Shown here piece after piece: positions 11,298 through 21,424 of a stretch of DNA of 26,162 nt. Positions within the stretch are counted from its first letter, which is position 1; each line of letters begins with the position of its first letter. The notes under the pieces are model-generated. The model did no database searches. It saw only the letters and a list, made by a program, of their open reading frames with translations, and had not been told where the DNA came from. Location of the stretch: IMG/VR virus record IMGVR_UViG_3300028965_000026. One strand, written 5' to 3'. Position numbers and translations under genes: made by a program. The DNA comes from a virus (taxonomy: Duplodnaviria > Heunggongvirae > Uroviricota > Caudoviricetes).

Positions 11298-11320
11298 TGG
11301 TGAAGTGATTGACTGAAAAA

Positions 11321-11350
11321 ACGGGTCGCGATGCGGCCCGTTTGTGTTTC
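11321..11350 (+). terminator. Stable hairpin with U-rich tail between the decoration and major capsid genes (terminator or attenuator-like)
   Basis: ACGGGTCGC-GAT-GCGGCCCGT (9 bp with one G-U pair) followed by TTGTGTTTCTG. Confidence 0.35.
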
Positions 11351-11366
11351 TGAAGGAAAATAAATT

Positions 11367-12395
11367 ATGGGGTTATTTACCACGCGTCAGTTACTCGGGT
11401 ACACCGAGCAGAAAGTGAAATTTCGTGCGCTGTTTCTGGAGCTGTTCTTTCGTCGCACGATCACTTTCCATACTCAGGAAGTCATGCTGGATAAAATTAC
11501 CGGCAAAACACCGGTTGCGGCGTATGTGTCTCCGGTGGTGTCAGGCAAAGTGCTGCGCAGCCGTGGTGGTGAAACCCGCGTGTTACGTCCCGGTTATGTA
11601 AAACCCAAACACCGCTTTGATTATCAGCAGGCAGTGGAACGTCTTCCGGGGGAAGATCCGGCCCGTCTTAATGACCCGGCCTACCGCCGCCTGCGTATTC
11701 TGACGGACAACCTGAAGCAGGAAGAGCAGGCGATTGTGCAGGTGGAAGAAATGCAGGCGGTCAGTGCCGTTCTGCAGGGTAAGTACACCATGAGCGGGGA
11801 ACAGTTTGAGACGGTGGAAGTGGATTTTGGGCGCTCTGCCACCAATAACATTACTCAGGCTGGCGGCAACAGATGGTCACAGCAGAATGCTGACACCTTT
11901 GATCCAACGCACGATCTGGATGCGTACTGCGATTTTGCCTCCGGGACCATCAATATCGCGATTATGGATGGCACGGTCTGGCGTATGCTGAATGGCTTTA
12001 AGCTTTTCCGTGAAAAACTGGATACCCGTCGTGGTTCAAAATCGGAACTGGAAACCGCGCTGAAAGACCTGGGCTCCGTAGTCTCTTTTAAGGGTTATTA
12101 CGGTGATCTGGCTATTGTGGTGGCGAAAACCGCTTACGTCGATGAAAACGGGGATGAACAGCGTTATCTGCCGGAAGGCACACTGATTCTGGGGAACACT
12201 CAGGCGGAAGGCGTCCGTTGTTATGGTGCCATTCAGGATAATCAGGCACTGAGTGAAGGGATCACCTCTGCGATTCGTTATCCGAAACACTGGTTAGAGG
12301 TGGGGGACCCGGGGTGCGAGTATACCATGACGCAGTCTGCGCCGTTGATGGTGCTGCCGGATCCGGATGCGTTTGTGGTGGTTCAGGTGAAATAA
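11367..12395 (+). CDS. E: Major capsid protein (lambda gpE-like)
   Basis: 342 aa, collinear with lambda E as recalled (YVSPVVSGKVLRSRGG, PGYVKPKH, DPAYRRLRI, QVEEMQAVSAVLQGKYTMSGEQF, LDTRRGSKSELETA, YPKHW, MTQSAPLM). Confidence 0.95.
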   Translation: MGLFTTRQLLGYTEQKVKFRALFLELFFRRTITFHTQEVMLDKITGKTPVAAYVSPVVSGKVLRSRGGETRVLRPGYVKPKHRFDYQQAVERLPGEDPARLNDPAYRRLRILTDNLKQEEQAIVQVEEMQAVSAVLQGKYTMSGEQFETVEVDFGRSATNNITQAGGNRWSQQNADTFDPTHDLDAYCDFASGTINIAIMDGTVWRMLNGFKLFREKLDTRRGSKSELETALKDLGSVVSFKGYYGDLAIVVAKTAYVDENGDEQRYLPEGTLILGNTQAEGVRCYGAIQDNQALSEGITSAIRYPKHWLEVGDPGCEYTMTQSAPLMVLPDPDAFVVVQVK

Positions 12396-12400
12396 GGTCA

Positions 12401-12425
12401 GGCGGGATATTCCCGCCTTTTTCTT
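12401..12425 (+). terminator. Intrinsic terminator after the major capsid gene (GGCGGGA/TCCCGCC stem, T-rich tail)
   Basis: GGCGGGATATTCCCGCC followed by TTTTTCTTT, starting 6 nt after the capsid stop codon. Confidence 0.6.
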
Positions 12426-12445
12426 TAGCGCACGGGAGAGATGTG

Positions 12446-12811
12446 ATGACAAAAGAGCAGATGACTGAACGTTTGCAGGAACTGGCAGTGATTCTGGGGC
12501 GTGAAGCAGATATTTCAGGTTCAAAAGCCGATCTTGAGCAGCGCCTGGCGGAATGGGAAGAGGAGGCCGCCGGATTCGATGGGGAGGAGACAGGGAAGGA
12601 AGAGGTGGGCAACGATGCATCCGGCGACGGAATGCATTCTGAGCGGGGACTCGCCCGGGTGCGTATGCTGAAAACGGCGCATATGCCAGCCTGTGATGCT
12701 GTGACGGGAAAAATGTTGATGTTTGCCCGGGCCTCCAGTGTTGTGCTGGTTAATGAAGCCGCAGTTCCAGCGTTGCTGGCGGACGGTCTGGCAGAAAAAA
12801 TCCGGGAGTGA
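12446..12811 (+). CDS. DNA packaging protein (lambda FI-like)
   Basis: RBS GGGAGAG, ATG at 12446. MTKEQMTERL ... ERGLAR resembles lambda FI (MTKDELIARL ... ERGLAR) and the gene is in the FI position. The six-frame ORF from 12314 is an upstream extension. Confidence 0.7.
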   Translation: MTKEQMTERLQELAVILGREADISGSKADLEQRLAEWEEEAAGFDGEETGKEEVGNDASGDGMHSERGLARVRMLKTAHMPACDAVTGKMLMFARASSVVLVNEAAVPALLADGLAEKIRE

Positions 12812-13215
12812 TGATGTTAGATAATCTGTTCGATCAGGCCATGAGCGATGCGGATGACATCATCCTGGATACGATGGGGACGGAAATCAGCATATATCCG
12901 GACGGCACGGAAAGAAGAATCCGTGCCGTTTTTGATGCCCCGGCAGAAAACACCGGGATGAACACTGGCAGCGGCGAAATTCGTGATACTGCGCCCGTGT
13001 TATTTACCCGGAGCGCATGGGCCGCCGGTCTGAAAAAATATGACAGGGTCATGATCCACGGCGAACCCTATCAGGTAGTCGATCCCGGCTGGGGTGAGTC
13101 AGGCACTGTGGGTCAGGGGGTGATTACCATCACCCTTGCGCGTGGAGAGCCGGGGAGAAATACACCTGCTGCACCGGAACGACCGAGTAAACGTTATGGC
13201 AGTCAGAGAGCATGA
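12811..13215 (+). CDS. Head-tail connector protein (lambda FII-like)
   Basis: N-terminal LDNLFDQAMSDADDIILDTMGT resembles lambda FII (DFDNLFDAAIARADETIRGYMGT). Start is one of the tandem ATGs at 12811/12814, overlapping the FI stop. Confidence 0.7.
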   Translation: MMLDNLFDQAMSDADDIILDTMGTEISIYPDGTERRIRAVFDAPAENTGMNTGSGEIRDTAPVLFTRSAWAAGLKKYDRVMIHGEPYQVVDPGWGESGTVGQGVITITLARGEPGRNTPAAPERPSKRYGSQRA

Positions 13216-13918
13216 ACGAAGCAGTGCCCGGCAGCGACGGCTGGCACGAAACCTCGTCGTCGATATTGATGAAGATGAGGTGCTGAAAATTATCGCTAAA
13301 CTGGGTGGGTCAAAAAGTCAGATCCGTAAAGCCTGGGGCGTGGCGCTGAAAAGAGCCGCGTCTGCACTGCGGATGAAGGCTATGGCAGAGTTTAAAAAAC
13401 AGGTTGCCCCACGCAGTCAGAAAATGATCAAAAAGCGTGTTCTGCATAATTTTATCATTCGTCGTAACGGTGATGAGTTTGATGAGGCGAAGGTATGGTT
13501 CGGTCTGAATGCCATCAAAGTACGCGATCTGCGCGGACGCATCAGTGGGGGGCGACGCGGCGAACGCCATCAGTTGCGCGATGAGCGGGGGCGTTTTGCA
13601 CCAGCTTCCCGCCGCAGGAAGGCACGGGAGATCCGTTTTAAACCTGCAGGGGAATCCCTGCCTGTCACCACTTGGTCAACGGATGATGCCTTTATCAATC
13701 AGTTCGAAGCGGAAAATCGTAACGGACGTATATCAAAAAGGAAAACGATACTGATCCGACAGGCATCCGGACGACGGAGGGTGCGTGAAGCGGAAATTGA
13801 TATTTATGAAGCCATGCTGAACCGTATAGAGGATTTTGTTTTTCCGGATGCGGAAGCACTGATCCTGAAAAATTTTGAGCATGAACTGAAATTCCGGGTA
13901 TTTAAGGGGCTGGAGTGA
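13196..13918 (+). CDS. Hypothetical Arg-rich virion morphogenesis protein (possible head-tail adaptor or tail completion protein)
   Basis: 240-aa ORF between the FII-like gene and the baseplate genes; very basic (RRRKAREIRF..., GRRRVRE). Start is uncertain: ATG at 13196, or TTG at 13136 as in the six-frame track. Confidence 0.55.
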   Translation: MAVREHERSSARQRRLARNLVVDIDEDEVLKIIAKLGGSKSQIRKAWGVALKRAASALRMKAMAEFKKQVAPRSQKMIKKRVLHNFIIRRNGDEFDEAKVWFGLNAIKVRDLRGRISGGRRGERHQLRDERGRFAPASRRRKAREIRFKPAGESLPVTTWSTDDAFINQFEAENRNGRISKRKTILIRQASGRRRVREAEIDIYEAMLNRIEDFVFPDAEALILKNFEHELKFRVFKGLE

Positions 13919-14481
13919 TGGAGCCATTGATGATGGGCGCCTGGCATCAGGCGGTGATTGACAGTCTGAAACAAATTCCCTGGGTGGAAGATGCCGATGA
14001 GTACCCGGAAAAAGTGACGCAACTGGTGACGCCTGCTGTGTTTGTGGATGTACCGGGCTGGGACAAGGCTCATTTTGCTGACGGGCAAACGCGGGTCACG
14101 CTGAAATGTGATCTGTTTGTGGTGACAGACCGGGCCGGGAAGACGGAAAACGTGCCAAAACCGCAGATTTTTGCCCGTTGTCTGGCGATGGATTTATCTG
14201 ACTGGATTGAGGGAGCCACGTTCGGGCTGGATAACGTTGATCCGGCGGTTTTTATCGATGCTGAGGTGGATACCTTCGACCGGCTGCTGGACGACTACAT
14301 CGTTTTCCGTGTCTCTTTCGAACAGGACATTCCGGTCGGCGAAGATCCGTTTGCGGTTCCGGCAGGTGCGCCGTTACAGGAAGTCTGGCTGGGTAAAGTA
14401 CCGGAAACCGGCAAGAGACATGAGCAGGATTATCGTCTTATCTGGAAATCGGAGGGCACCGGTGATGAGTCTGGCAGATGA
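13915..14481 (+). CDS. Hypothetical virion protein (possible tail completion or neck protein)
   Basis: 188-aa acidic ORF, start overlapping the preceding stop (GTG 13915 / ATG 13918), 3' end overlapping the V-like gene. No motif recognised. Confidence 0.55.
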   Translation: MMEPLMMGAWHQAVIDSLKQIPWVEDADEYPEKVTQLVTPAVFVDVPGWDKAHFADGQTRVTLKCDLFVVTDRAGKTENVPKPQIFARCLAMDLSDWIEGATFGLDNVDPAVFIDAEVDTFDRLLDDYIVFRVSFEQDIPVGEDPFAVPAGAPLQEVWLGKVPETGKRHEQDYRLIWKSEGTGDESGR

Positions 14482-16367: not shown

Positions 16368-16950
16368 CAAAATCAGAAGCATACTTCCTGTCAGCGCCAG
16401 CCGGGCAGAGCGGGTGGTGGACAGTACCGCCGGTGATATGCTGGCGGAAATCGCAGTATGTCTGATCCGCTATGTCAAAAATCCCGATTTATGTCCTGCT
16501 GAATTGCTGCCATGGCTGGCCTGGGAAATGGCGGTGGACACCTGGAATGAACACTGGACGGAGGCGGAAAAAAGGTCTGCGATAAAACGTGCTGCATACA
16601 TCCACCGCCACAGAGGGACTAAAGCGGCGCTGATGGCATCGCTGGCTGACAGTCCCTTCCGGTCGCAGATTGTTGAGTGGTATGAGCAGACCCCACCCGG
16701 GGAGCCGTATACCTTCCGTCTGAACGTGGAGCAGAAAGATTTACCGGTGCTGATGAATGATCATCAGGATCTGAAGCATGCGGTGCTCCGTGCCAAAAAT
16801 CTGCGCAGCTGGTTCAGTATTCACGTTTACGGGAACAGCACAGGGCGTGGATTTGGTTACGGCTATGTGATGGCGACAGAAAAAATCAGAAGTACCGGTG
16901 TGACAACAAAGACAGTGCCCACAGGCGGGCAGAGTGAGGCAGGTGTATGA
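16360..16950 (+). CDS. I: Baseplate/tail protein (P2 gpI-like)
   Basis: 196 aa. NPDLCPAELLPWLAWEMAVDTWNEHWTEAEKRSAIKRA matches P2 I (NPDTCPANLLPWLAWAFSVDRWDEKWPEATKRAVIRDA). Confidence 0.9.
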   Translation: MNDKIRSILPVSASRAERVVDSTAGDMLAEIAVCLIRYVKNPDLCPAELLPWLAWEMAVDTWNEHWTEAEKRSAIKRAAYIHRHRGTKAALMASLADSPFRSQIVEWYEQTPPGEPYTFRLNVEQKDLPVLMNDHQDLKHAVLRAKNLRSWFSIHVYGNSTGRGFGYGYVMATEKIRSTGVTTKTVPTGGQSEAGV

Positions 16951-18332
16951 ATGGACTGATTCTGACAACGTCCGGCGCTGCAGAAATTGAAGCAGCATAT
17001 CAGAACGGGCAAACCGTGACCGTCCGGCATGTTCTGCTTGGTGACGGGGGCGGGCGGGCATTGCCATCCACGCCGGATGAAATGGCAGCAATGACATCGT
17101 TGTACGGCGAATTCGGGCAGGAACCCTTTTCCGACGGTGCGGTGGAGGAGGGCTTCATCAGCGGGGATATTGTGATTGACTGTAAATCATACCCCGGTAA
17201 AACCCTTCGTGAACTGGGGATGATCAGCGACAGAGGTACGCTTATCGCGTACGGACGTTATCCCGACACCTTTTTACCAGACCAGACGGACTCTGTTATC
17301 AAGGAAGTTATTCTGACGCTGGTTCTTGGGCTGACGCACGCACAAAACGTGGTGCTGGAAGTTGATCCGGACAGGGCCATTATTACTCAGGAAATCGGAG
17401 ACAGACGCTATCTGCAACGAAAAAAGAATCTTTCGGATGTGGAAGACAAGGATGAGGCTGTTGAAAACCTCGGATTAAAACCCACGGTGGACAAGGCAAA
17501 AAATGCCGTTCAGCGTGATGGTGACACCATGACCGGGGAACTGAAAATCCGTGGTGTTAATGCGCTGAGGATTTTCAACGAAGCCTTTGGTCTGATTTTT
17601 CGTCGTTCGGAAGAGTGCCTGCACCTTATCCCTACCAGTGAAGGTCAGGGCGAGAATGGCGATATTGGTCCACTTCGACCGTTCACTATTAATCTGCGGA
17701 CGGGTGAAATATCCATGTCGCATAAAGTGTCTGTTGGCGGCGGTTCTCAGGTCAATGGTGCGCTGGGTATCGGCGTTCAGAACGCGCTGGGCGGAAACTC
17801 AATTGCTTTCGGGGATAACGATACAGGTATAAAACAAAACGGCGACGGCATTCTGGATGTTTATGCGAATGGACAGCATGTATTTCGTTTCCAGAATGGT
17901 GTGGCGATAGCGTTAAAAAATATTCAGGCCGGAAATGCTAAAAAATTCACGTTATCCAGCGCCAACAACTCCACGAAAAACGCAACGTTTAATTTATGGG
18001 GTAATTCATCCCGACCTGTAGTTGCAGAGCTTGGTGATGATTCCGGCTGGCATTTTTACAGTCAGAGGAATACGGATAACAGTATAACGTTCGCTGTAAA
18101 CGGGCAGATGGTTCCATCAAACTACGGAAACTTTGATGCCCGCTATCAGACCAAAACAGGCGGTGTACAGGATGTGCGTCTGGGCAGTGCCATTGGTATT
18201 GGGCGTGGCGGGAACGCACCATCAGGTCACCTTATCAGCGGTCTTGATGGTGGTGAAAGTATGGACTGGGCCAATGCCCGCCCGGTGCAGGTTCTGATTA
18301 ATGGCGTCTGGCGGAATGTAGCGAGTTTGTAA
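16947..18332 (+). CDS. H: Tail fibre protein (P2 gpH-like, C-terminal receptor-binding region conserved)
   Basis: 461 aa. C-terminal about 170 aa nearly collinear with P2 H as recalled (NALGGNSIAFGDNDTGIKQNGDGILDVYANGQHVFRFQNGVAIALKNIQAG ... FNLWGNSSRPVVAELGDDSGWHFYSQRNTDNSITFAVNGQM). Confidence 0.85.
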   Translation: MNGLILTTSGAAEIEAAYQNGQTVTVRHVLLGDGGGRALPSTPDEMAAMTSLYGEFGQEPFSDGAVEEGFISGDIVIDCKSYPGKTLRELGMISDRGTLIAYGRYPDTFLPDQTDSVIKEVILTLVLGLTHAQNVVLEVDPDRAIITQEIGDRRYLQRKKNLSDVEDKDEAVENLGLKPTVDKAKNAVQRDGDTMTGELKIRGVNALRIFNEAFGLIFRRSEECLHLIPTSEGQGENGDIGPLRPFTINLRTGEISMSHKVSVGGGSQVNGALGIGVQNALGGNSIAFGDNDTGIKQNGDGILDVYANGQHVFRFQNGVAIALKNIQAGNAKKFTLSSANNSTKNATFNLWGNSSRPVVAELGDDSGWHFYSQRNTDNSITFAVNGQMVPSNYGNFDARYQTKTGGVQDVRLGSAIGIGRGGNAPSGHLISGLDGGESMDWANARPVQVLINGVWRNVASL

Positions 18333-18334
18333 TT

Positions 18335-18880
18335 ATGATGCACTTAAAAAATCTTACGGTACAAAACCCTAAAACAATTGAGCAATACCAGCTGGCGCGA
18401 CAGCATAAATTTTTATTGTGGCTGCTCTCCGATGATGGTCAGGAATGGCACGAAGCCCAGGAAAAATTTCAGCCAGACACTCTGAAAGTTATTTATGTTG
18501 AAACTGGCGAAGTGGTCTGGGTTGGAAAAGACATCACCTCAATCTGCCCGGAAAATAAAAGTGTGATTGAGTTGCCGGATATTACCGCTAATCGTCGCAT
18601 TGAGGCGTCGGGATACTGGTTCTACCGCAATGATGAATTTGTTTTCGACTACAAACTTAAAGCGGAAGATGAGCGTGACGCACTGTTAAAACAGGTCAGT
18701 ATCATGACCAGCGAATGGGAAAAAGACCTGCTGCTGGGTTTAATCAGCGACGAAGACAGGGAAAAGCTCAAAGCGTACCGCATTTACGCGAAATCGCTGC
18801 AGGCGATGGATTTCAGCGCTATTACGGATAAGACCACTTACAACAATATTAGCTGGCCTGAGCAGCCACAAAATACCTGA
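18335..18880 (+). CDS. Tail fibre assembly chaperone (P2 gpG / Tfa family)
   Basis: 181 aa. MMHLKNLTVQNPKTIEQYQL ... FQPDTLKVIYVE ... VIELPDITANRR ... WPEQPQ matches P2 G as recalled (MQHLKNIKSGNPKTKEQYQL ... FQPDTIKIVYDE ... VVEVPDITSNRR ... WPEMPQ). Confidence 0.9.
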   Translation: MMHLKNLTVQNPKTIEQYQLARQHKFLLWLLSDDGQEWHEAQEKFQPDTLKVIYVETGEVVWVGKDITSICPENKSVIELPDITANRRIEASGYWFYRNDEFVFDYKLKAEDERDALLKQVSIMTSEWEKDLLLGLISDEDREKLKAYRIYAKSLQAMDFSAITDKTTYNNISWPEQPQNT

Positions 18881-18899
18881 AAAAGAAGTTAATCATCTG

Positions 18900-18921
18900 A
18901 CCGCCTGAGGGCGGTTTTTTT
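18900..18921 (+). terminator. Intrinsic terminator after the tail fibre assembly gene (ACCGCC-TGAG-GGCGGT, T6 tail)
   Basis: Perfect 6-bp stem with a tetraloop and six T residues. Confidence 0.65.
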
Positions 18922-18934
18922 ATGGGAGAAATGT

Positions 18935-20410
18935 ATGCCCGGATTACATGGTGTTGAAACCATTGAACTGACGACAGGCACGGTTGCCGTGCAGACCATC
19001 TCCACGGCAGTGATTGGCCTGGTGGGGACAGCGCCGGACGCCTCTGGTGGTGTGTGCGCTTCCGGCACAGCCGGCTCCTGGCTGCTGGGAACGGCGCTGG
19101 ATTTCACGGCGAAACAGGAAGGTCGGGCCGGTAATAAGATTTCGGTTGTTGCTGTGGCTGCCACAGAACAAAACGCGCAGACAGTGGCCTCGCTGAAAGG
19201 TACGACCCTGACGATAACACTGGGGACGGACGAACACAGCCAGGTTAACGCCACGGCGGACCGTGTGACTGAAGTGGTGAATGCGCTGGGGGATTCGCCT
19301 GTGACGGCGGCTGTCAGCACCTTGAATGCAGGAGACGCTGAAAATAAAGTGGTGTTGCCGTTCAGCCTGACGTTATCCGGCGGAGAAGATGAGGCGTTCC
19401 CGGTCAATACACCAGTGGTGGTGGCAGGGGCCATTACTCAGGCAGGGAAACTGGGCACAGCCGGAACATTATACCCGGCCCTGCGAGATATTTTTGACCA
19501 GACTGGTGCGCTGGTGATTGTGGTGCGCGCAGAAAGTAAAACAAAGACGAAAGAGGCCGAACAGCGTGCGGCGGTGATTCAGGCCATGGAGGCGCTGACA
19601 GAAAGTAAGGGCGTGACAGGCTATCAACCGCGCGTCCTCATTGCCACGGGGTACAGTGAGGATGATGGCGTGGCAAAGGCGCTGGAAACGTATGCCGTGA
19701 AGCTGCGGGCTGTGGCCTATATTGACTCGCCTTCAATGGCAACGCCGCAGGATGTGGTTCAGCGGCGCGCGTCATTTGGTGGGCGTGTGGAGCTGCTGCG
19801 TCCGCGCGTGTCAGTGACGGATGACAGCGGGCAAACGATATTTCGTCCATATTCGGCTCGTGCTGCCGGGCTGCGTGCCCGTATTGATTACGAAAAAGGG
19901 TGGTGGTGGTCCAAATCAAACCAGGACGTGATGAATATCACCGGTCTGGAGCAGGTGGATACGTTTATTCTCGGGGAGCAGAACTGCACGGCAAACCTGC
20001 TGAACATGGAAAATATCTCCACCATTATTCGCCATGACGGTTTTAAACACTGGGGTAACCGTCTGTGCACATCCCACAGTCAGTGGCGTTTTGAGCCGGT
20101 ACGCCGCACTGCAGATGTGATTGAGGACAGCATCCAGGAGGCCATGCTGCCTTATGTCGATCGCCCGCTTGATCGGGATGTGGCAGACGACATTCTTGGC
20201 AGCATTAATGCCTATATGCGTCAGCTTAAAAATCTGGGCGCGATCCACGGTGGCAGTGCATGGCTGAACGATGAACTGAACACTGCAGAAACCCTGGCGG
20301 CAGGGCAGTTGTATATCGATTATGACTTTGGGCCGAAGTCACCACTGGAGCGCCTGACACTGCGGGCAATGATTAACAATAAACTGGCGCTGGAGGAACT
20401 GACGGTATGA
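18935..20410 (+). CDS. Contractile tail sheath protein (P2 FI-like) with an extra N-proximal domain of about 110 aa
   Basis: 491 aa. N-terminus (HGVETIELTTGTVAVQTISTAVIGLVGTAPDA) and C-terminal two-thirds (WGNRLCTS..., ETLAAGQLYIDYDFGPKSPLERLTLRA) match P2 FI as recalled. About 95 aa longer than P2 FI. Confidence 0.9.
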   Translation: MPGLHGVETIELTTGTVAVQTISTAVIGLVGTAPDASGGVCASGTAGSWLLGTALDFTAKQEGRAGNKISVVAVAATEQNAQTVASLKGTTLTITLGTDEHSQVNATADRVTEVVNALGDSPVTAAVSTLNAGDAENKVVLPFSLTLSGGEDEAFPVNTPVVVAGAITQAGKLGTAGTLYPALRDIFDQTGALVIVVRAESKTKTKEAEQRAAVIQAMEALTESKGVTGYQPRVLIATGYSEDDGVAKALETYAVKLRAVAYIDSPSMATPQDVVQRRASFGGRVELLRPRVSVTDDSGQTIFRPYSARAAGLRARIDYEKGWWWSKSNQDVMNITGLEQVDTFILGEQNCTANLLNMENISTIIRHDGFKHWGNRLCTSHSQWRFEPVRRTADVIEDSIQEAMLPYVDRPLDRDVADDILGSINAYMRQLKNLGAIHGGSAWLNDELNTAETLAAGQLYIDYDFGPKSPLERLTLRAMINNKLALEELTV

Positions 20411-20970: not shown

Positions 20971-20984
20971 TAAAGGAGATGCTT

Positions 20985-21287
20985 ATGTCGGAAAAAAACA
21001 GTGTTCCTGCCAGCAGCGTGGAAATTGTGTTATCCGTGCCGTATGTCACCGCATCAGGACAGACGATCACGCACGTCACTATGCGTGCGCCCACTGTCCG
21101 CGATCGTCTGTTGCATCGCCGGAGTAACAAACCGGAAGCAGAGGCTGATCTGGATATGATTGCCGGTCTGTGTGGGATGGACGCGGCAGACATGATGAAC
21201 ATGGAAGCGTGTGATTACCTGGCCCTGGAGCGTCAGTTTAATGTTTTTTTGCTGCCGCCGGTCCGGCGGAAGAAGAAAGCATCCTGA
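20985..21287 (+). CDS. Tail assembly chaperone (P2 gpE-like, tape-measure chaperone)
   Basis: AAGGAG at 20973-20978 with 6-nt spacing to ATG 20985. About 100-aa ORF immediately upstream of the tape measure gene. A T7 run sits near its 3' end. Confidence 0.75.
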   Translation: MSEKNSVPASSVEIVLSVPYVTASGQTITHVTMRAPTVRDRLLHRRSNKPEAEADLDMIAGLCGMDAADMMNMEACDYLALERQFNVFLLPPVRRKKKAS

Positions 21288-21424
21288 CAGCGATACGGCG
21301 TGCCGGTGCCTGGTTCGGGTGGTCTCCCGGAGATGTGATGGCGCTGCCGTATACGGATTTTGTGGCAATGATGCTGGCGGAGTCGGAAGAGAGGAAGCGA
21401 TGTTATGGCAACGGTGGGCGATAA
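20985..21424 (+). CDS. Predicted -1 frameshift fusion product (P2 E+E'-like extended chaperone); slip at 21245-21251
   Basis: Slippery heptamer T TTT TTG in the zero frame at 21245-21251. The -1 frame then stays open for 58 codons (FFAAAGPAEEESILTAIRRAGAWFGWSPGDVMALPYTDFVAMMLAESEERKRCYGNGGR) to TAA at 21422-21424, overlapping the tape measure start. Same layout as P2 E/E' and lambda G/GT. Confidence 0.5.
21244..21251 (+). other. Programmed -1 ribosomal frameshift slippery site (TTTTTTTG)
   Basis: Run of seven T then G near the 3' end of the chaperone gene, with an open -1 frame downstream. Confidence 0.55.

What the first reader, a model, noticed from the sequence alone, without database searches (positions are those of the whole stretch)
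13196..14481. Two uncharacterised proteins at the head-tail module junction
The 240-aa very basic protein (RRRKAREIRF ..., GRRRVREAEIDIYEAMLNRIEDF) and the 188-aa acidic protein occupy the slot between the lambda FII-like connector and the P2-type baseplate genes. I cannot match them to lambda Z/U or to P2 R/S from memory. They are candidates for the neck or tail-terminator adaptors specific to this hybrid.
Basis: inference. Interest (0 to 1): 0.35.

Follow-up and report, generated by a model that had tools for sequence, protein, structure and literature searches.

The report
Phage tail-completion and tail-terminator genes
The two "uncharacterised" genes are the ordinary neck-end parts of a contractile phage tail: a divergent relative of lambda's tail-completion protein Z, followed by a tail-terminator (cap) protein like the collar of R-type pyocins and the terminator of phage Mu. 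The same cassette occurs in many related prophages.

Summary
Both ORFs are real, conserved and under purifying selection. They sit in an E. coli prophage that has a lambda-type head and a P2/pyocin-type contractile tail.

**The 240-aa protein (13196-13918).** It has pI 11 and a net charge of +24. It matches PHROG 27 ("tail completion or Neck1", the family that holds lambda gpZ) at E=1.6e-28. A profile built from it recovers proteins that pass Pfam's Minor_tail_Z threshold. It is therefore a divergent gpZ-type tail completion protein (TCP), enlarged by an Arg/His-rich insertion.

**The acidic 187/188-aa protein (13918-14481).** It has no Pfam hit, and its PHROG family has no assigned function. 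Its profile hits the R2 pyocin collar PA0615 (E=3e-5). Its AlphaFold model matches the pyocin collar, Mu gp37, T5 p142 and lambda gpU. It is the tail terminator (TrP).

**Context.** The order FII-like, TCP, TrP, gpV recurs in Hafnia phage yong2, Vibrio phage Valp1, Wolbachia phage WO and Salmonella/Citrobacter prophages. The pair is not specific to this "hybrid".

**Verdict.** This is an ordinary finding with minor annotation value.

The parts
12811..13215 (+). Context: lambda FII-type head-closure / head-tail joining protein (Hc1). Its last 20 nt overlap the start of the next gene.
   Evidence: Pfam PF05354 Phage_attach E=3.8e-12. PHROG 82 'head closure Hc1' E=5e-28, the same family as lambda FII. 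RefSeq annotates it as 'head-tail joining protein'.
13196..13918 (+). Tail completion protein (TCP / Neck1), a divergent member of the lambda gpZ family. 240 aa, pI 11.05, net +24.
   Evidence: PHROG 27 'tail completion or Neck1' E=1.6e-28 over residues 15-239. Lambda gpZ is also PHROG 27. A profile of this protein family finds P0096 and others (E=1e-35), which pass the Pfam PF06763 Minor_tail_Z gathering score. The AF2 model has pLDDT 73, with long N-terminal helices, a beta domain and C-terminal helices. dN/dS is 0.09.
13544..13591 (+). Lineage-specific Arg/His-rich insertion in the TCP beta domain (residues 117-132, SGGRRGERHQLRDERG). It contains the invariant H125, R128 and G132.
   Evidence: Present in E. 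coli, Salmonella, Hafnia and Citrobacter relatives. Absent from the Vibrio Valp1, Wolbachia WO and lambda Z proteins and from the ~185-aa relatives. The model has low confidence here, with pLDDT about 61-64.
13918..14481 (+). Tail terminator protein (TrP) of the contractile-tail / tailocin type. 187 aa from ATG 13918; alternative starts are GTG 13915 and ATG 13930. pI 4.34.
   Evidence: A 46-sequence profile hits PDB 6u5f_A 'Collar PA0615' at E=3.1e-5. The AF2 model has pLDDT 82. Foldseek matches: pyocin R2 collar E=2.6e-8 (TM 0.61/0.69), Mu terminator 9khy E=3e-7, A-1(L) gp7 terminator, T5 p142 and lambda gpU, all at prob 1.00. PHROG 1072, unknown function, E=5.8e-51. dN/dS is 0.15.
14371..14448 (+). 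C-terminal extension of the TrP (residues 153-178 counted from GTG 13915), with the conserved L-G-x-x-P-x-x-G-x-x-H-x-x-D-Y motif. Proposed sheath-binding arm.
   Evidence: The motif is nearly invariant in 46 homologues and aligns to PA0615 residues up to 164 of 171. The model gives short strands at 156-159 and 174-178 at lower pLDDT, 56-72. The sheath-binding role is inferred from Mu gp37 and other myophage/CIS terminators (PMC11915804).
14465..15088 (+). Context: P2-type baseplate spike protein gpV. It overlaps the TrP gene by 17 nt.
   Evidence: TIGR01644 phage_P2_V E=1.1e-19. RefSeq annotates it as 'phage baseplate assembly protein V'. The sequence is shown.

Best explanation
The two genes encode the proteins that finish the capsid-proximal end of this prophage's contractile tail.

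**Second gene (187/188 aa, acidic): the tail terminator.** By inference from its structural homologues, six copies form a ring that caps the last tube hexamer once the tube has reached the length set by the tape-measure protein. The extended C-terminal arm holds the top ring of the sheath. The upper face of the ring is the docking surface for the FII-type head-closure ring on the filled head.

**First gene (240 aa, strongly basic): a gpZ-type tail completion protein.** By analogy with phage 80alpha gp51, SPP1 gp16.1 and lambda gpZ, it most likely sits in one or a few copies inside the neck lumen. There it would lie between the end of the packaged DNA and the N-termini of the tape-measure protein, with its positive surface facing DNA. 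Its job would be to make the joined particle infectious, by placing the DNA end correctly and routing it during ejection.

**Expression.** The genes are translationally coupled to their neighbours by 20-nt, 1-nt and 17-nt overlaps, and they are expressed as part of the late operon.

**Shown versus inferred.** Family and fold assignments, gene order and conservation are shown. Stoichiometry, location in the virion, the sheath handshake and DNA contact are inferred.
For: **TCP.**
- It matches PHROG 27 at E=1.6e-28, the same family as lambda gpZ.
- An exhaustive profile search finds 191 representatives. Many of them are ~185-aa proteins.
- 16 of 39 sampled sequences, one of them lambda gpZ itself, hit Pfam Minor_tail_Z at E<=0.01. 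Seven of ten re-scanned relatives pass its gathering score, for example P0096 at 34 bits against a cut-off of 23.9.
- The secondary-structure order, helices then beta domain then helices, fits the published description of TCPs and of gpZ 'with an additional beta domain' (PMC11661146).
- Its pI is 11 and its net charge +24.

**TrP.**
- Its profile hits the pyocin collar PA0615 at E=3.1e-5.
- Foldseek matches at prob 1.00 include the pyocin R2 collar, Mu gp37, the A-1(L) terminator, T5 p142, lambda gpU and the monocin and diffocin caps.

**Gene order.** Hc1, TCP, TrP is the canonical order (PMC11099176, PMC11784142). Here it is conserved in phages yong2, Valp1 and WO and in Salmonella and Citrobacter prophages.

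**Other support.**
- No other candidate terminator or completion gene is annotated in the late region.
- Selection is purifying.
- There is no promoter-like site and no strong (8 pairs or more) terminator hairpin inside the pair; only weak 5-7-pair terminator-like matches fall there.
Against: - The 240-aa protein itself has no Pfam hit at E<=1.
- hhalign of its family profile against the single lambda gpZ sequence is not significant.
- Foldseek finds no solved structure for its model. The only weak match in the viral predicted-structure library is E=2e-3. Its placement in the gpZ family therefore rests on PHROG 27 and on transitive profile links.
- T5's TCP was found at the tail tip rather than in the neck (PMC11784142). 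No TCP has yet been seen in any myophage neck map, so the proposed lumen location is uncertain.
- The TrP C-terminal arm is modelled at low confidence. P2 and the pyocin use different terminator-sheath handshakes (bioRxiv 10.64898/2026.09.14.750843), so the exact contact cannot be read off by homology.
Confidence: 0.85

Rival explanations
1. The 240-aa basic protein is not a virion tail completion protein. It would be a nucleic-acid-binding accessory, for example a packaging or ejection helper or an internal protein, that shares only distant similarity with the gpZ family.
For: The protein is extremely Arg-rich, with a disordered N-terminus and a low-confidence basic loop. It has no direct Pfam hit and no PDB fold match.
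Against: The PHROG 27 match runs the full length at E=1.6e-28. Graded homologues lead into Pfam Minor_tail_Z. Its position between Hc1 and TrP is fixed in every related locus. Lambda gpZ has a basic run (RRRRRKK) at the same alignment position. A DNA-contacting role is in any case part of TCP function (PMC11661146).
Confidence: 0.07
2. The 188-aa protein terminates only the sheath, as T4 gp15 does, and a separate tube terminator is encoded elsewhere.
For: Some myophages, such as T4, use two terminators (PMC11784142). T4 neck chains appear weakly in the fold search (9mkb, E=3.6e-3, TM 0.28).
Against: The best structural matches are single-terminator systems that cap both tube and sheath: the pyocin collar, Mu gp37 and A-1(L) (PMC11915804). 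No second candidate exists among the annotated late genes. P2 also uses one terminator ring, gpR (bioRxiv 10.64898/2026.09.14.750843).
Confidence: 0.05
3. This is the first reader's version: the pair are novel adaptors that arose specifically to fit a lambda head to a P2 tail in this one hybrid.
For: There is no Pfam or NCBIfam hit for either protein. Both are 'hypothetical protein' in RefSeq. Neither shows sequence similarity to P2 R or S, or to single lambda Z or U sequences.
Against: Both fall in known superfamilies. The cassette is shared by phages of Hafnia, Citrobacter, Vibrio, Burkholderia and Wolbachia. It is also found attached to a different head type, a ClpP-capsid fusion.
Confidence: 0.03

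Closest known systems
Lambda gpZ (Pfam PF06763 Minor_tail_Z; PHROG 27; 'Ne1' / tail completion protein)
   Same: Same PHROG family. Same gene position, directly after the FII-type head-closure gene and before the terminator. Same helix, beta domain, helix layout. A basic run lies at the same alignment position.
   Different: Pairwise identity is about 19%, with no direct Pfam hit. The protein is 48 aa longer, owing to a 9-aa N-terminal extension, a 16-aa Arg/His-rich insertion and a 7-aa insertion. It serves a contractile rather than a non-contractile tail.
Phage 80alpha gp51 and SPP1 gp16.1 (tail completion proteins with an experimentally defined location or function)
   Same: Same functional class and gene context. 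They provide the mechanistic model: a monomer in the neck lumen that bridges the DNA end and the tape-measure N-termini, and that is needed for head-tail joining and correct DNA routing (PMC11661146, PMC11099176).
   Different: These are much smaller proteins (112-141 aa) without the inserted beta domain. No sequence or Foldseek match was found here. They come from Gram-positive siphophages.
R2 pyocin collar protein PA0615 (PDB 6U5F/6U5J)
   Same: It is the best sequence-profile hit (E=3.1e-5) and the best structural hit (E=2.6e-8, TM 0.61-0.69) for the 188-aa protein. The conserved C-terminal G..P..G..H..DY segment is shared. From my own knowledge of the pyocin cluster, its gene also lies immediately upstream of the gpV homologue. 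This is consistent with the phage WOcauB1 annotation, 'similar to hypothetical protein of P. aeruginosa' followed by 'similar to GPV of P2'.
   Different: Identity is about 20%. The pyocin has no head, no DNA and no TCP partner, so its collar needs no head-docking face.
Phage Mu gp37 (gene K) tail terminator (PDB 9KHY/9LJ8)
   Same: It shares the terminator fold with an extended C-terminus. It is a single hexameric terminator that caps both tube and sheath (PMC11915804).
   Different: Identity is about 15-17%. Mu docks the terminator directly on its adaptor, with no FII-type stopper, whereas this prophage has an FII-type gene.
P2 gpR (tail terminator, PHROG 65) and gpS (TCP, PHROG 26)
   Same: They are the functional equivalents in the phage whose baseplate and tail genes this prophage resembles.
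   Different: No detectable sequence relationship: hhalign probability below 1%, and they fall in different PHROG families. P2 has the order R then S, that is terminator first, whereas here the TCP comes first.
Lambda-head / P2-tail chimeric temperate phages (Wolbachia WO, Hafnia yong2, Citrobacter Chris1, Vibrio Valp1)
   Same: They have the same FII, Z-like, PA0615-like, gpV arrangement. The chimeric architecture is described in the literature (PMC3235987).
   Different: Protein identity is 27-52%. WO and Valp1 lack the Arg/His-rich TCP insertion. yong2 and the Citrobacter-type locus have a different head type and place the sheath gene directly after V.

Membership tests
gpZ-type tail completion protein (PHROG 27 / Pfam PF06763 / Ne1) | Significant match to a family profile | tested here: met
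   PHROG 27 at E=1.6e-28, residues 15-239 against profile positions 4-194 of 199. Lambda gpZ matches the same PHROG at E=3e-69.
gpZ-type tail completion protein (PHROG 27 / Pfam PF06763 / Ne1) | Direct match to the curated Pfam model Minor_tail_Z | tested here: not met
   The protein itself has no Pfam family at E<=1. Membership is transitive only. Relatives found with its profile (for example P0096, E=1e-35) pass the PF06763 gathering score (34 bits against 23.9). 16 of 39 sampled sequences, lambda gpZ itself among them, hit the model at E<=0.01.
gpZ-type tail completion protein (PHROG 27 / Pfam PF06763 / Ne1) | Gene lies between the head-closure (Hc1/FII) gene and the tail terminator gene | tested here: met
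   True in the window, and in yong2, Valp1, WO, Salmonella and Citrobacter loci.
gpZ-type tail completion protein (PHROG 27 / Pfam PF06763 / Ne1) | TCP fold: long N-terminal helix, loop or beta insert, C-terminal helix | tested here: inconclusive
   The AF2 secondary-structure order fits: H40-69, strands 84-187, H203-237, pLDDT 73. Foldseek finds no PDB match and only one BFVD match, at E=2e-3.
gpZ-type tail completion protein (PHROG 27 / Pfam PF06763 / Ne1) | Tail or virion component that is required for infectivity or head-tail joining | not testable with these tools
   Needs virion proteomics and a deletion mutant.
Tail terminator protein superfamily (lambda gpU / Mu gp37 / pyocin collar PA0615) | Terminator fold | tested here: met
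   Foldseek gives 28 PDB matches at E<=1e-3, nearly all terminators, caps or collars. The top ones are 6u5j_A at 2.6e-8, 9khy_1 at 3e-7, 8kef_a, 8bcp, 3fz2 and 8iyd. The model has pLDDT 82.
Tail terminator protein superfamily (lambda gpU / Mu gp37 / pyocin collar PA0615) | Sequence-profile relationship to a solved member | tested here: met
   The 46-sequence profile against PDB hits Collar PA0615 at E=3.1e-5, and the next hit is at E>2.
Tail terminator protein superfamily (lambda gpU / Mu gp37 / pyocin collar PA0615) | Extended C-terminus that binds the last sheath ring (the myophage/CIS subtype) | tested here: inconclusive
   A conserved C-terminal motif aligns with the PA0615 C-terminus. The model has short strands there, but at pLDDT 56-72. 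No complex prediction was available.
Tail terminator protein superfamily (lambda gpU / Mu gp37 / pyocin collar PA0615) | Hexameric ring capping the tube | not testable with these tools
   Only monomer prediction was possible.
P2 gpR tail terminator (PHROG 65 / Pfam PF06891) | Sequence match to P2 gpR or its family | tested here: not met
   hhalign probability is 0.03% for the 188-aa family and 0.08% for the 240-aa family. There is no Pfam hit. gpR falls in PHROG 65, not PHROG 1072.
P2 gpS / Mu gpG virion morphogenesis protein (PHROG 26 / Pfam PF05069) | Sequence match to P2 gpS or its family | tested here: not met
   hhalign probability is 0.2% and 0.6%. gpS falls in PHROG 26, not PHROG 27.
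Lambda gpU (PHROG 37) | Sequence match to gpU | tested here: not met
   hhalign probability is 0.75%. Only the fold is shared (3fz2/3fzb/8iyd, TM 0.44-0.74).

The most novel reading that the evidence does not exclude
The enlarged, Arg/His-rich gpZ-type protein is a contractile-tail adaptation of the tail completion protein. Its conserved inserted loop (R-H-x-L-R-D-x-x-G-R-F followed by an RRR run) would clamp the cos DNA end, or the N-termini of the P2-type tape-measure protein, inside the neck. No TCP has yet been located in any myophage structure. This large and abundant variant, in an inducible E. coli prophage, could make the long-unresolved question of where TCPs sit and what they do in contractile tails directly testable.
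Probability: 0.15. Interest if true: 0.4.

Novelty: new member of a known kind. Interest (0 to 1): 0.12.

Why it matters
The practical value is in annotation. Both genes are 'hypothetical protein' in RefSeq, neither is covered by Pfam or NCBIfam, and PHROG 1072 has no assigned function. The results here allow PHROG 1072 and its enterobacterial relatives to be named tail terminators of the PA0615/Mu gp37 type, and the 240-aa family to be named gpZ-type tail completion proteins.

Biologically, the result shows that the junction between a lambda-type head module and a P2/pyocin-type tail module is built from the standard four-part neck: adaptor W, stopper FII, TCP and terminator. No bespoke adaptors are involved. 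A specialist would not be surprised.

Tried and rejected
**Searches that found nothing useful**
- Megablast of the 1.7-kb region against GenBank phages gave no match. Only protein-level searches found isolated phages.
- Pfam and NCBIfam scans of both proteins gave nothing meaningful.
- hhalign of the family profiles against single P2 gpR, P2 gpS, lambda gpZ and lambda gpU sequences was not significant in any case. BLASTP against gpZ gave E=0.6. Single-sequence templates are weak, so these negatives bear on direct family membership, not on superfamily membership.
- A profile search of the 240-aa family against PDB sequences gave only spurious hits: designed repeat proteins and eS17.
- Foldseek of the 240-aa model against PDB found nothing below E=0.4. 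Against BFVD there was one unnamed 188-aa viral protein, at E=2e-3.
- UniRef labels one TrP homologue (P0070) 'DUF3168', the SPP1 gp17-type family. No member of the 46-sequence set hit that Pfam model at E<=1, so I did not use the label as evidence.

**Ideas considered and rejected**
- That the pair are morons or non-structural inserts. Tight overlaps, conserved synteny and purifying selection argue against this.
- A programmed -1 frameshift fusing the capsid protein to the FI-frame ORF. A CCCGGGG heptamer at 12307-12313 and a 481-aa PHROG 2353 profile suggested it. The heptamer and the linker are not conserved in the Salmonella orthologous locus, and phage genomes match only the FI part.
Full report
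**Where the window comes from.** The window is 100% identical over the tested 1.7 kb to a prophage in the E. coli CEA224S chromosome. That prophage lies next to a tRNA-Ser gene and hyaA. Related copies occur in 78 of 5426 complete E. coli genomes. The late region has two parts.
- A lambda-type head module: small and large terminase, W, portal, S49 protease, D-like decoration protein, E-type capsid protein (PF03864, E=1e-65), FI and FII.
- A P2/pyocin-type contractile tail module: V, W, J, I, fibre, fibre chaperone, sheath, tube, E/E', tape measure, U, X and D.

The finding covers the two genes between FII and V.

**Checking the observation.**
- *Coordinates and sequences.* The ORFs are exactly where stated: ATG 13196 to 13918 (240 aa) and GTG 13915 to 14481 (188 aa). 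The quoted peptides are present.
- *Charge.* The first protein has pI 11.05, with 37 Arg and net +24. The second has pI 4.34 and net -18.
- *Packing.* The genes are tightly packed. The first overlaps the FII-like gene by 20 nt. The second begins inside a GTGATG, so its likely ATG (13918) shares one base with the preceding TGA. gpV overlaps the second gene by 17 nt.
- *Start of the second gene.* Homologues start at the position of ATG 13918, so 187 aa is the most probable length. RefSeq chose ATG 13930.
- *Signals.* No promoter-like site falls inside the pair, and the terminator-like matches within it are all weak (5-7 pairs).
- *Conservation.* Both proteins are conserved across genera.
- *Selection.* Against the Salmonella orthologues, dN/dS is 0.09 and 0.15, comparable to the capsid gene (0.11) and gpV (0.17).

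These are real, selected structural genes.

**The 240-aa basic protein: family assignment.**
- *Curated libraries.* Pfam and NCBIfam give nothing.
- *PHROGs.* PHROG 27, 'tail completion or Neck1 protein', matches at E=1.6e-28 over almost the whole length. Lambda gpZ falls in the same PHROG at E=3e-69.
- *Direct comparison.* Comparison with the single gpZ sequence is not significant, so I tested the link transitively.
- *Transitive link.* A 19-sequence profile was searched exhaustively against 1.84 billion representatives and found only 191 proteins. Many of these are ~185-aa proteins that match in two blocks. Of 39 sampled sequences, which include lambda gpZ itself, 16 hit Pfam Minor_tail_Z at E<=0.01. 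Seven of ten re-scanned relatives pass its gathering threshold. P0096 is an example: E=1e-35 to my profile, and 34 bits against a 23.9-bit cut-off for PF06763.

**The 240-aa basic protein: why it is larger than gpZ.** Alignments show where the extra length comes from.
- A 9-aa N-terminal extension.
- A conserved 16-aa Arg/His-rich insertion (residues 117-132, with invariant H125, R128 and G132). Hafnia and Citrobacter relatives share it. Vibrio Valp1, Wolbachia WO and lambda do not.
- A 7-aa insertion found only in the E. coli and Salmonella forms.

Lambda gpZ carries its own basic run (RRRRRKK) at the same place.

**The 240-aa basic protein: structure.** The AlphaFold model has pLDDT 73 and pTM 0.65. 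It shows N-terminal helices, including a 30-residue helix, then a beta domain, then two C-terminal helices. [quoted passage not shown] Foldseek found no solved counterpart and only one weak viral predicted-structure match. I therefore rate the fold test inconclusive.

**The 188-aa acidic protein.**
- *Family libraries.* It has no Pfam hit, and PHROG 1072 (E=5.8e-51) has no assigned function.
- *Sequence profiles.* A 9-sequence profile already hit one PDB sequence, 'Collar PA0615' of the R2 pyocin, at E=8e-4. A 46-sequence profile improved this to E=3.1e-5, with the next hit above E=2. The aligned region includes a C-terminal L-G-x-x-P-x-x-G-x-x-H-x-x-D-Y motif that is nearly invariant in the family.
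- *Structure.* The AlphaFold model has pLDDT 82. It matches the pyocin collar (E=2.6e-8, TM 0.61/0.69), the Mu terminator gp37 (E=3e-7), the cyanophage A-1(L) terminator, the monocin and diffocin caps, T5 p142 and lambda gpU, all at probability 1.00.

This is a tail terminator of the contractile-tail/tailocin subtype, which is distinguished by an extended C-terminus that grips the last sheath ring (PMC11915804).

**Context and distribution.**
- *Isolated phages.* tblastn finds both genes side by side in Hafnia phage yong2, Citrobacter phage Chris1, Vibrio phage Valp1 and several induced E. coli myophages. The terminator alone is also found in Burkholderia and many Wolbachia WO phages.
- *Gene order.* In yong2, Valp1 and WO the order is FII-like (or its positional counterpart; unannotated in WO), Z-like, PA0615-like, V. 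In WO the first gene is already annotated 'minor tail protein Z'. An older WO record describes the second as 'similar to hypothetical protein of Pseudomonas aeruginosa', followed by 'similar to GPV of phage P2'.
- *Prophages.* Salmonella prophages have the same arrangement with the same lambda-type head. A Citrobacter-type locus and yong2 attach the same cassette to a different head, a ClpP-capsid fusion.
- *Literature.* Lambda-head/P2-tail chimeras have been described since the first WO genomes and in Xylella (PMC3235987).

The pair is therefore a standard neck cassette of a widespread lineage, not something specific to this element.

**Mechanism.** The following is inference from homologues.
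- *Terminator: function.* Terminators form a hexamer that stops tube polymerisation at the length set by the tape measure and provides the head-docking surface. Losing them gives polytails or over-long tails (PMC11784142).
- *Terminator: single or double.* In Mu, P2 and the pyocin, one terminator caps both tube and sheath (PMC11915804; bioRxiv 10.64898/2026.09.14.750843). No second candidate gene exists here, so I assign that dual role to the 187/188-aa protein.
- *TCP: evidence from other phages.* TCPs are essential but long unlocated. In 80alpha/SaPI1, a single copy sits in the neck lumen, caps the DNA end with a positive surface, and forms a sheet with the three tape-measure N-termini (PMC11661146). 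SPP1 gp16.1 helps build the head-binding interface and is needed to route DNA into the cell (PMC11099176). Lambda Z-minus particles look normal but are about 500-fold less infectious (PMC11661146).
- *TCP: fit to this protein.* The +24 charge and the conserved basic insertion of the 240-aa protein fit a DNA-facing role.
- *TCP: caveats.* T5's TCP sits at the tail tip, and no myophage map has yet shown a TCP (PMC11784142). I give the location only about even odds, although the family assignment is firm.

**Comparison with P2.** The functional equivalents are gpR (terminator, PHROG 65) and gpS (TCP, PHROG 26). Neither shows detectable sequence similarity to the proteins here. The tail end of this prophage is of the gpZ plus PA0615/Mu type, even though the baseplate and tube genes are P2-like.

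**Verdict.** These are new, divergent members of known kinds. Interest is low (0.12). The only mildly interesting residue is the enlarged basic TCP variant, which could be a convenient system for locating a TCP in a contractile tail.

Noticed in passing
window 12257-12811 (with 11367-12395): The frame that holds FI is open for about 190 nt upstream of the FI start and overlaps the end of the capsid gene in the -1 frame. A CCCGGGG heptamer at 12307-12313 fits the X_XXY_YYZ slippery pattern. PHROG 2353 (a 481-aa 'major head protein') matches capsid residues 1-314 plus this ORF's residues 1-165 (E=2e-107), as if a capsid-FI fusion had been annotated somewhere. However, the heptamer and linker are not conserved in the Salmonella orthologous locus, and phage genomes match only the FI part. 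A programmed frameshift is therefore not supported.
   Followed up: partly
window 11319-11343 and 12400-12418: Two strong GC-rich hairpins (11 and 8 pairs) bracket the major capsid gene; the second is followed by a clear T run. The second lies in the capsid-FI intergenic space. They are possible partial terminators or RNA-stability elements that would raise capsid expression relative to downstream genes.
   Followed up: no
window 931-1006 and 1010-1084: Two adjacent prophage-borne tRNA genes, tRNA-Thr(UGU) and tRNA-Gly(UCC), lie in the region that holds the antitermination-protein and lysis genes in the matching RefSeq record; their place relative to those genes was not worked out.
   Followed up: no
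window 20979-21424: This is the canonical P2-type tail-chaperone frameshift. gpE (20979-21287) contains TTTTTTTG at 21244-21251, and the -1 frame stays open from there to 21424, overlapping the tape-measure start at 21405. An E+E' product is therefore expected. RefSeq annotates only gpE.
   Followed up: partly
window ~24845 to the end (26162): After gpD a second, long fibre gene begins and runs off the window. RefSeq annotates it as 'prophage tail fiber N-terminal domain-containing protein', 757 aa, followed by a DUF4376 protein. This is in addition to the P2 H-type fibre at 16947-18332, so the phage may carry two fibre sets.
   Followed up: no
L007 6712-7933 (Salmonella contig AALIXB010000051): In one Salmonella prophage the TCP and terminator genes are separated by a ~1.2-kb insertion. 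On the opposite strand it carries a TnpB/OrfB-like ORF with a C-terminal zinc-finger motif, split into 144-aa and 289-aa pieces. This looks like an IS200/IS605-type element. The otherwise identical locus L008 lacks it.
   Followed up: partly
L009 and L004 (Citrobacter-type prophage; Hafnia phage yong2): The same FII-TCP-terminator-V cassette is joined to a different head type, a ClpP protease-capsid fusion with a cement protein instead of lambda C/D/E. The sheath-tube-TMP block also comes directly after V rather than after the fibre genes. This shows module shuffling on both sides of the cassette.
   Followed up: no
window 18889-19434 (- strand): A 181-aa ATG ORF lies antisense to the start of the sheath gene. 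It is the same length as the neighbouring fibre-assembly gene (18335-18880). It is not annotated in RefSeq and is probably spurious. A remnant of an invertible fibre-chaperone segment was not excluded.
   Followed up: no
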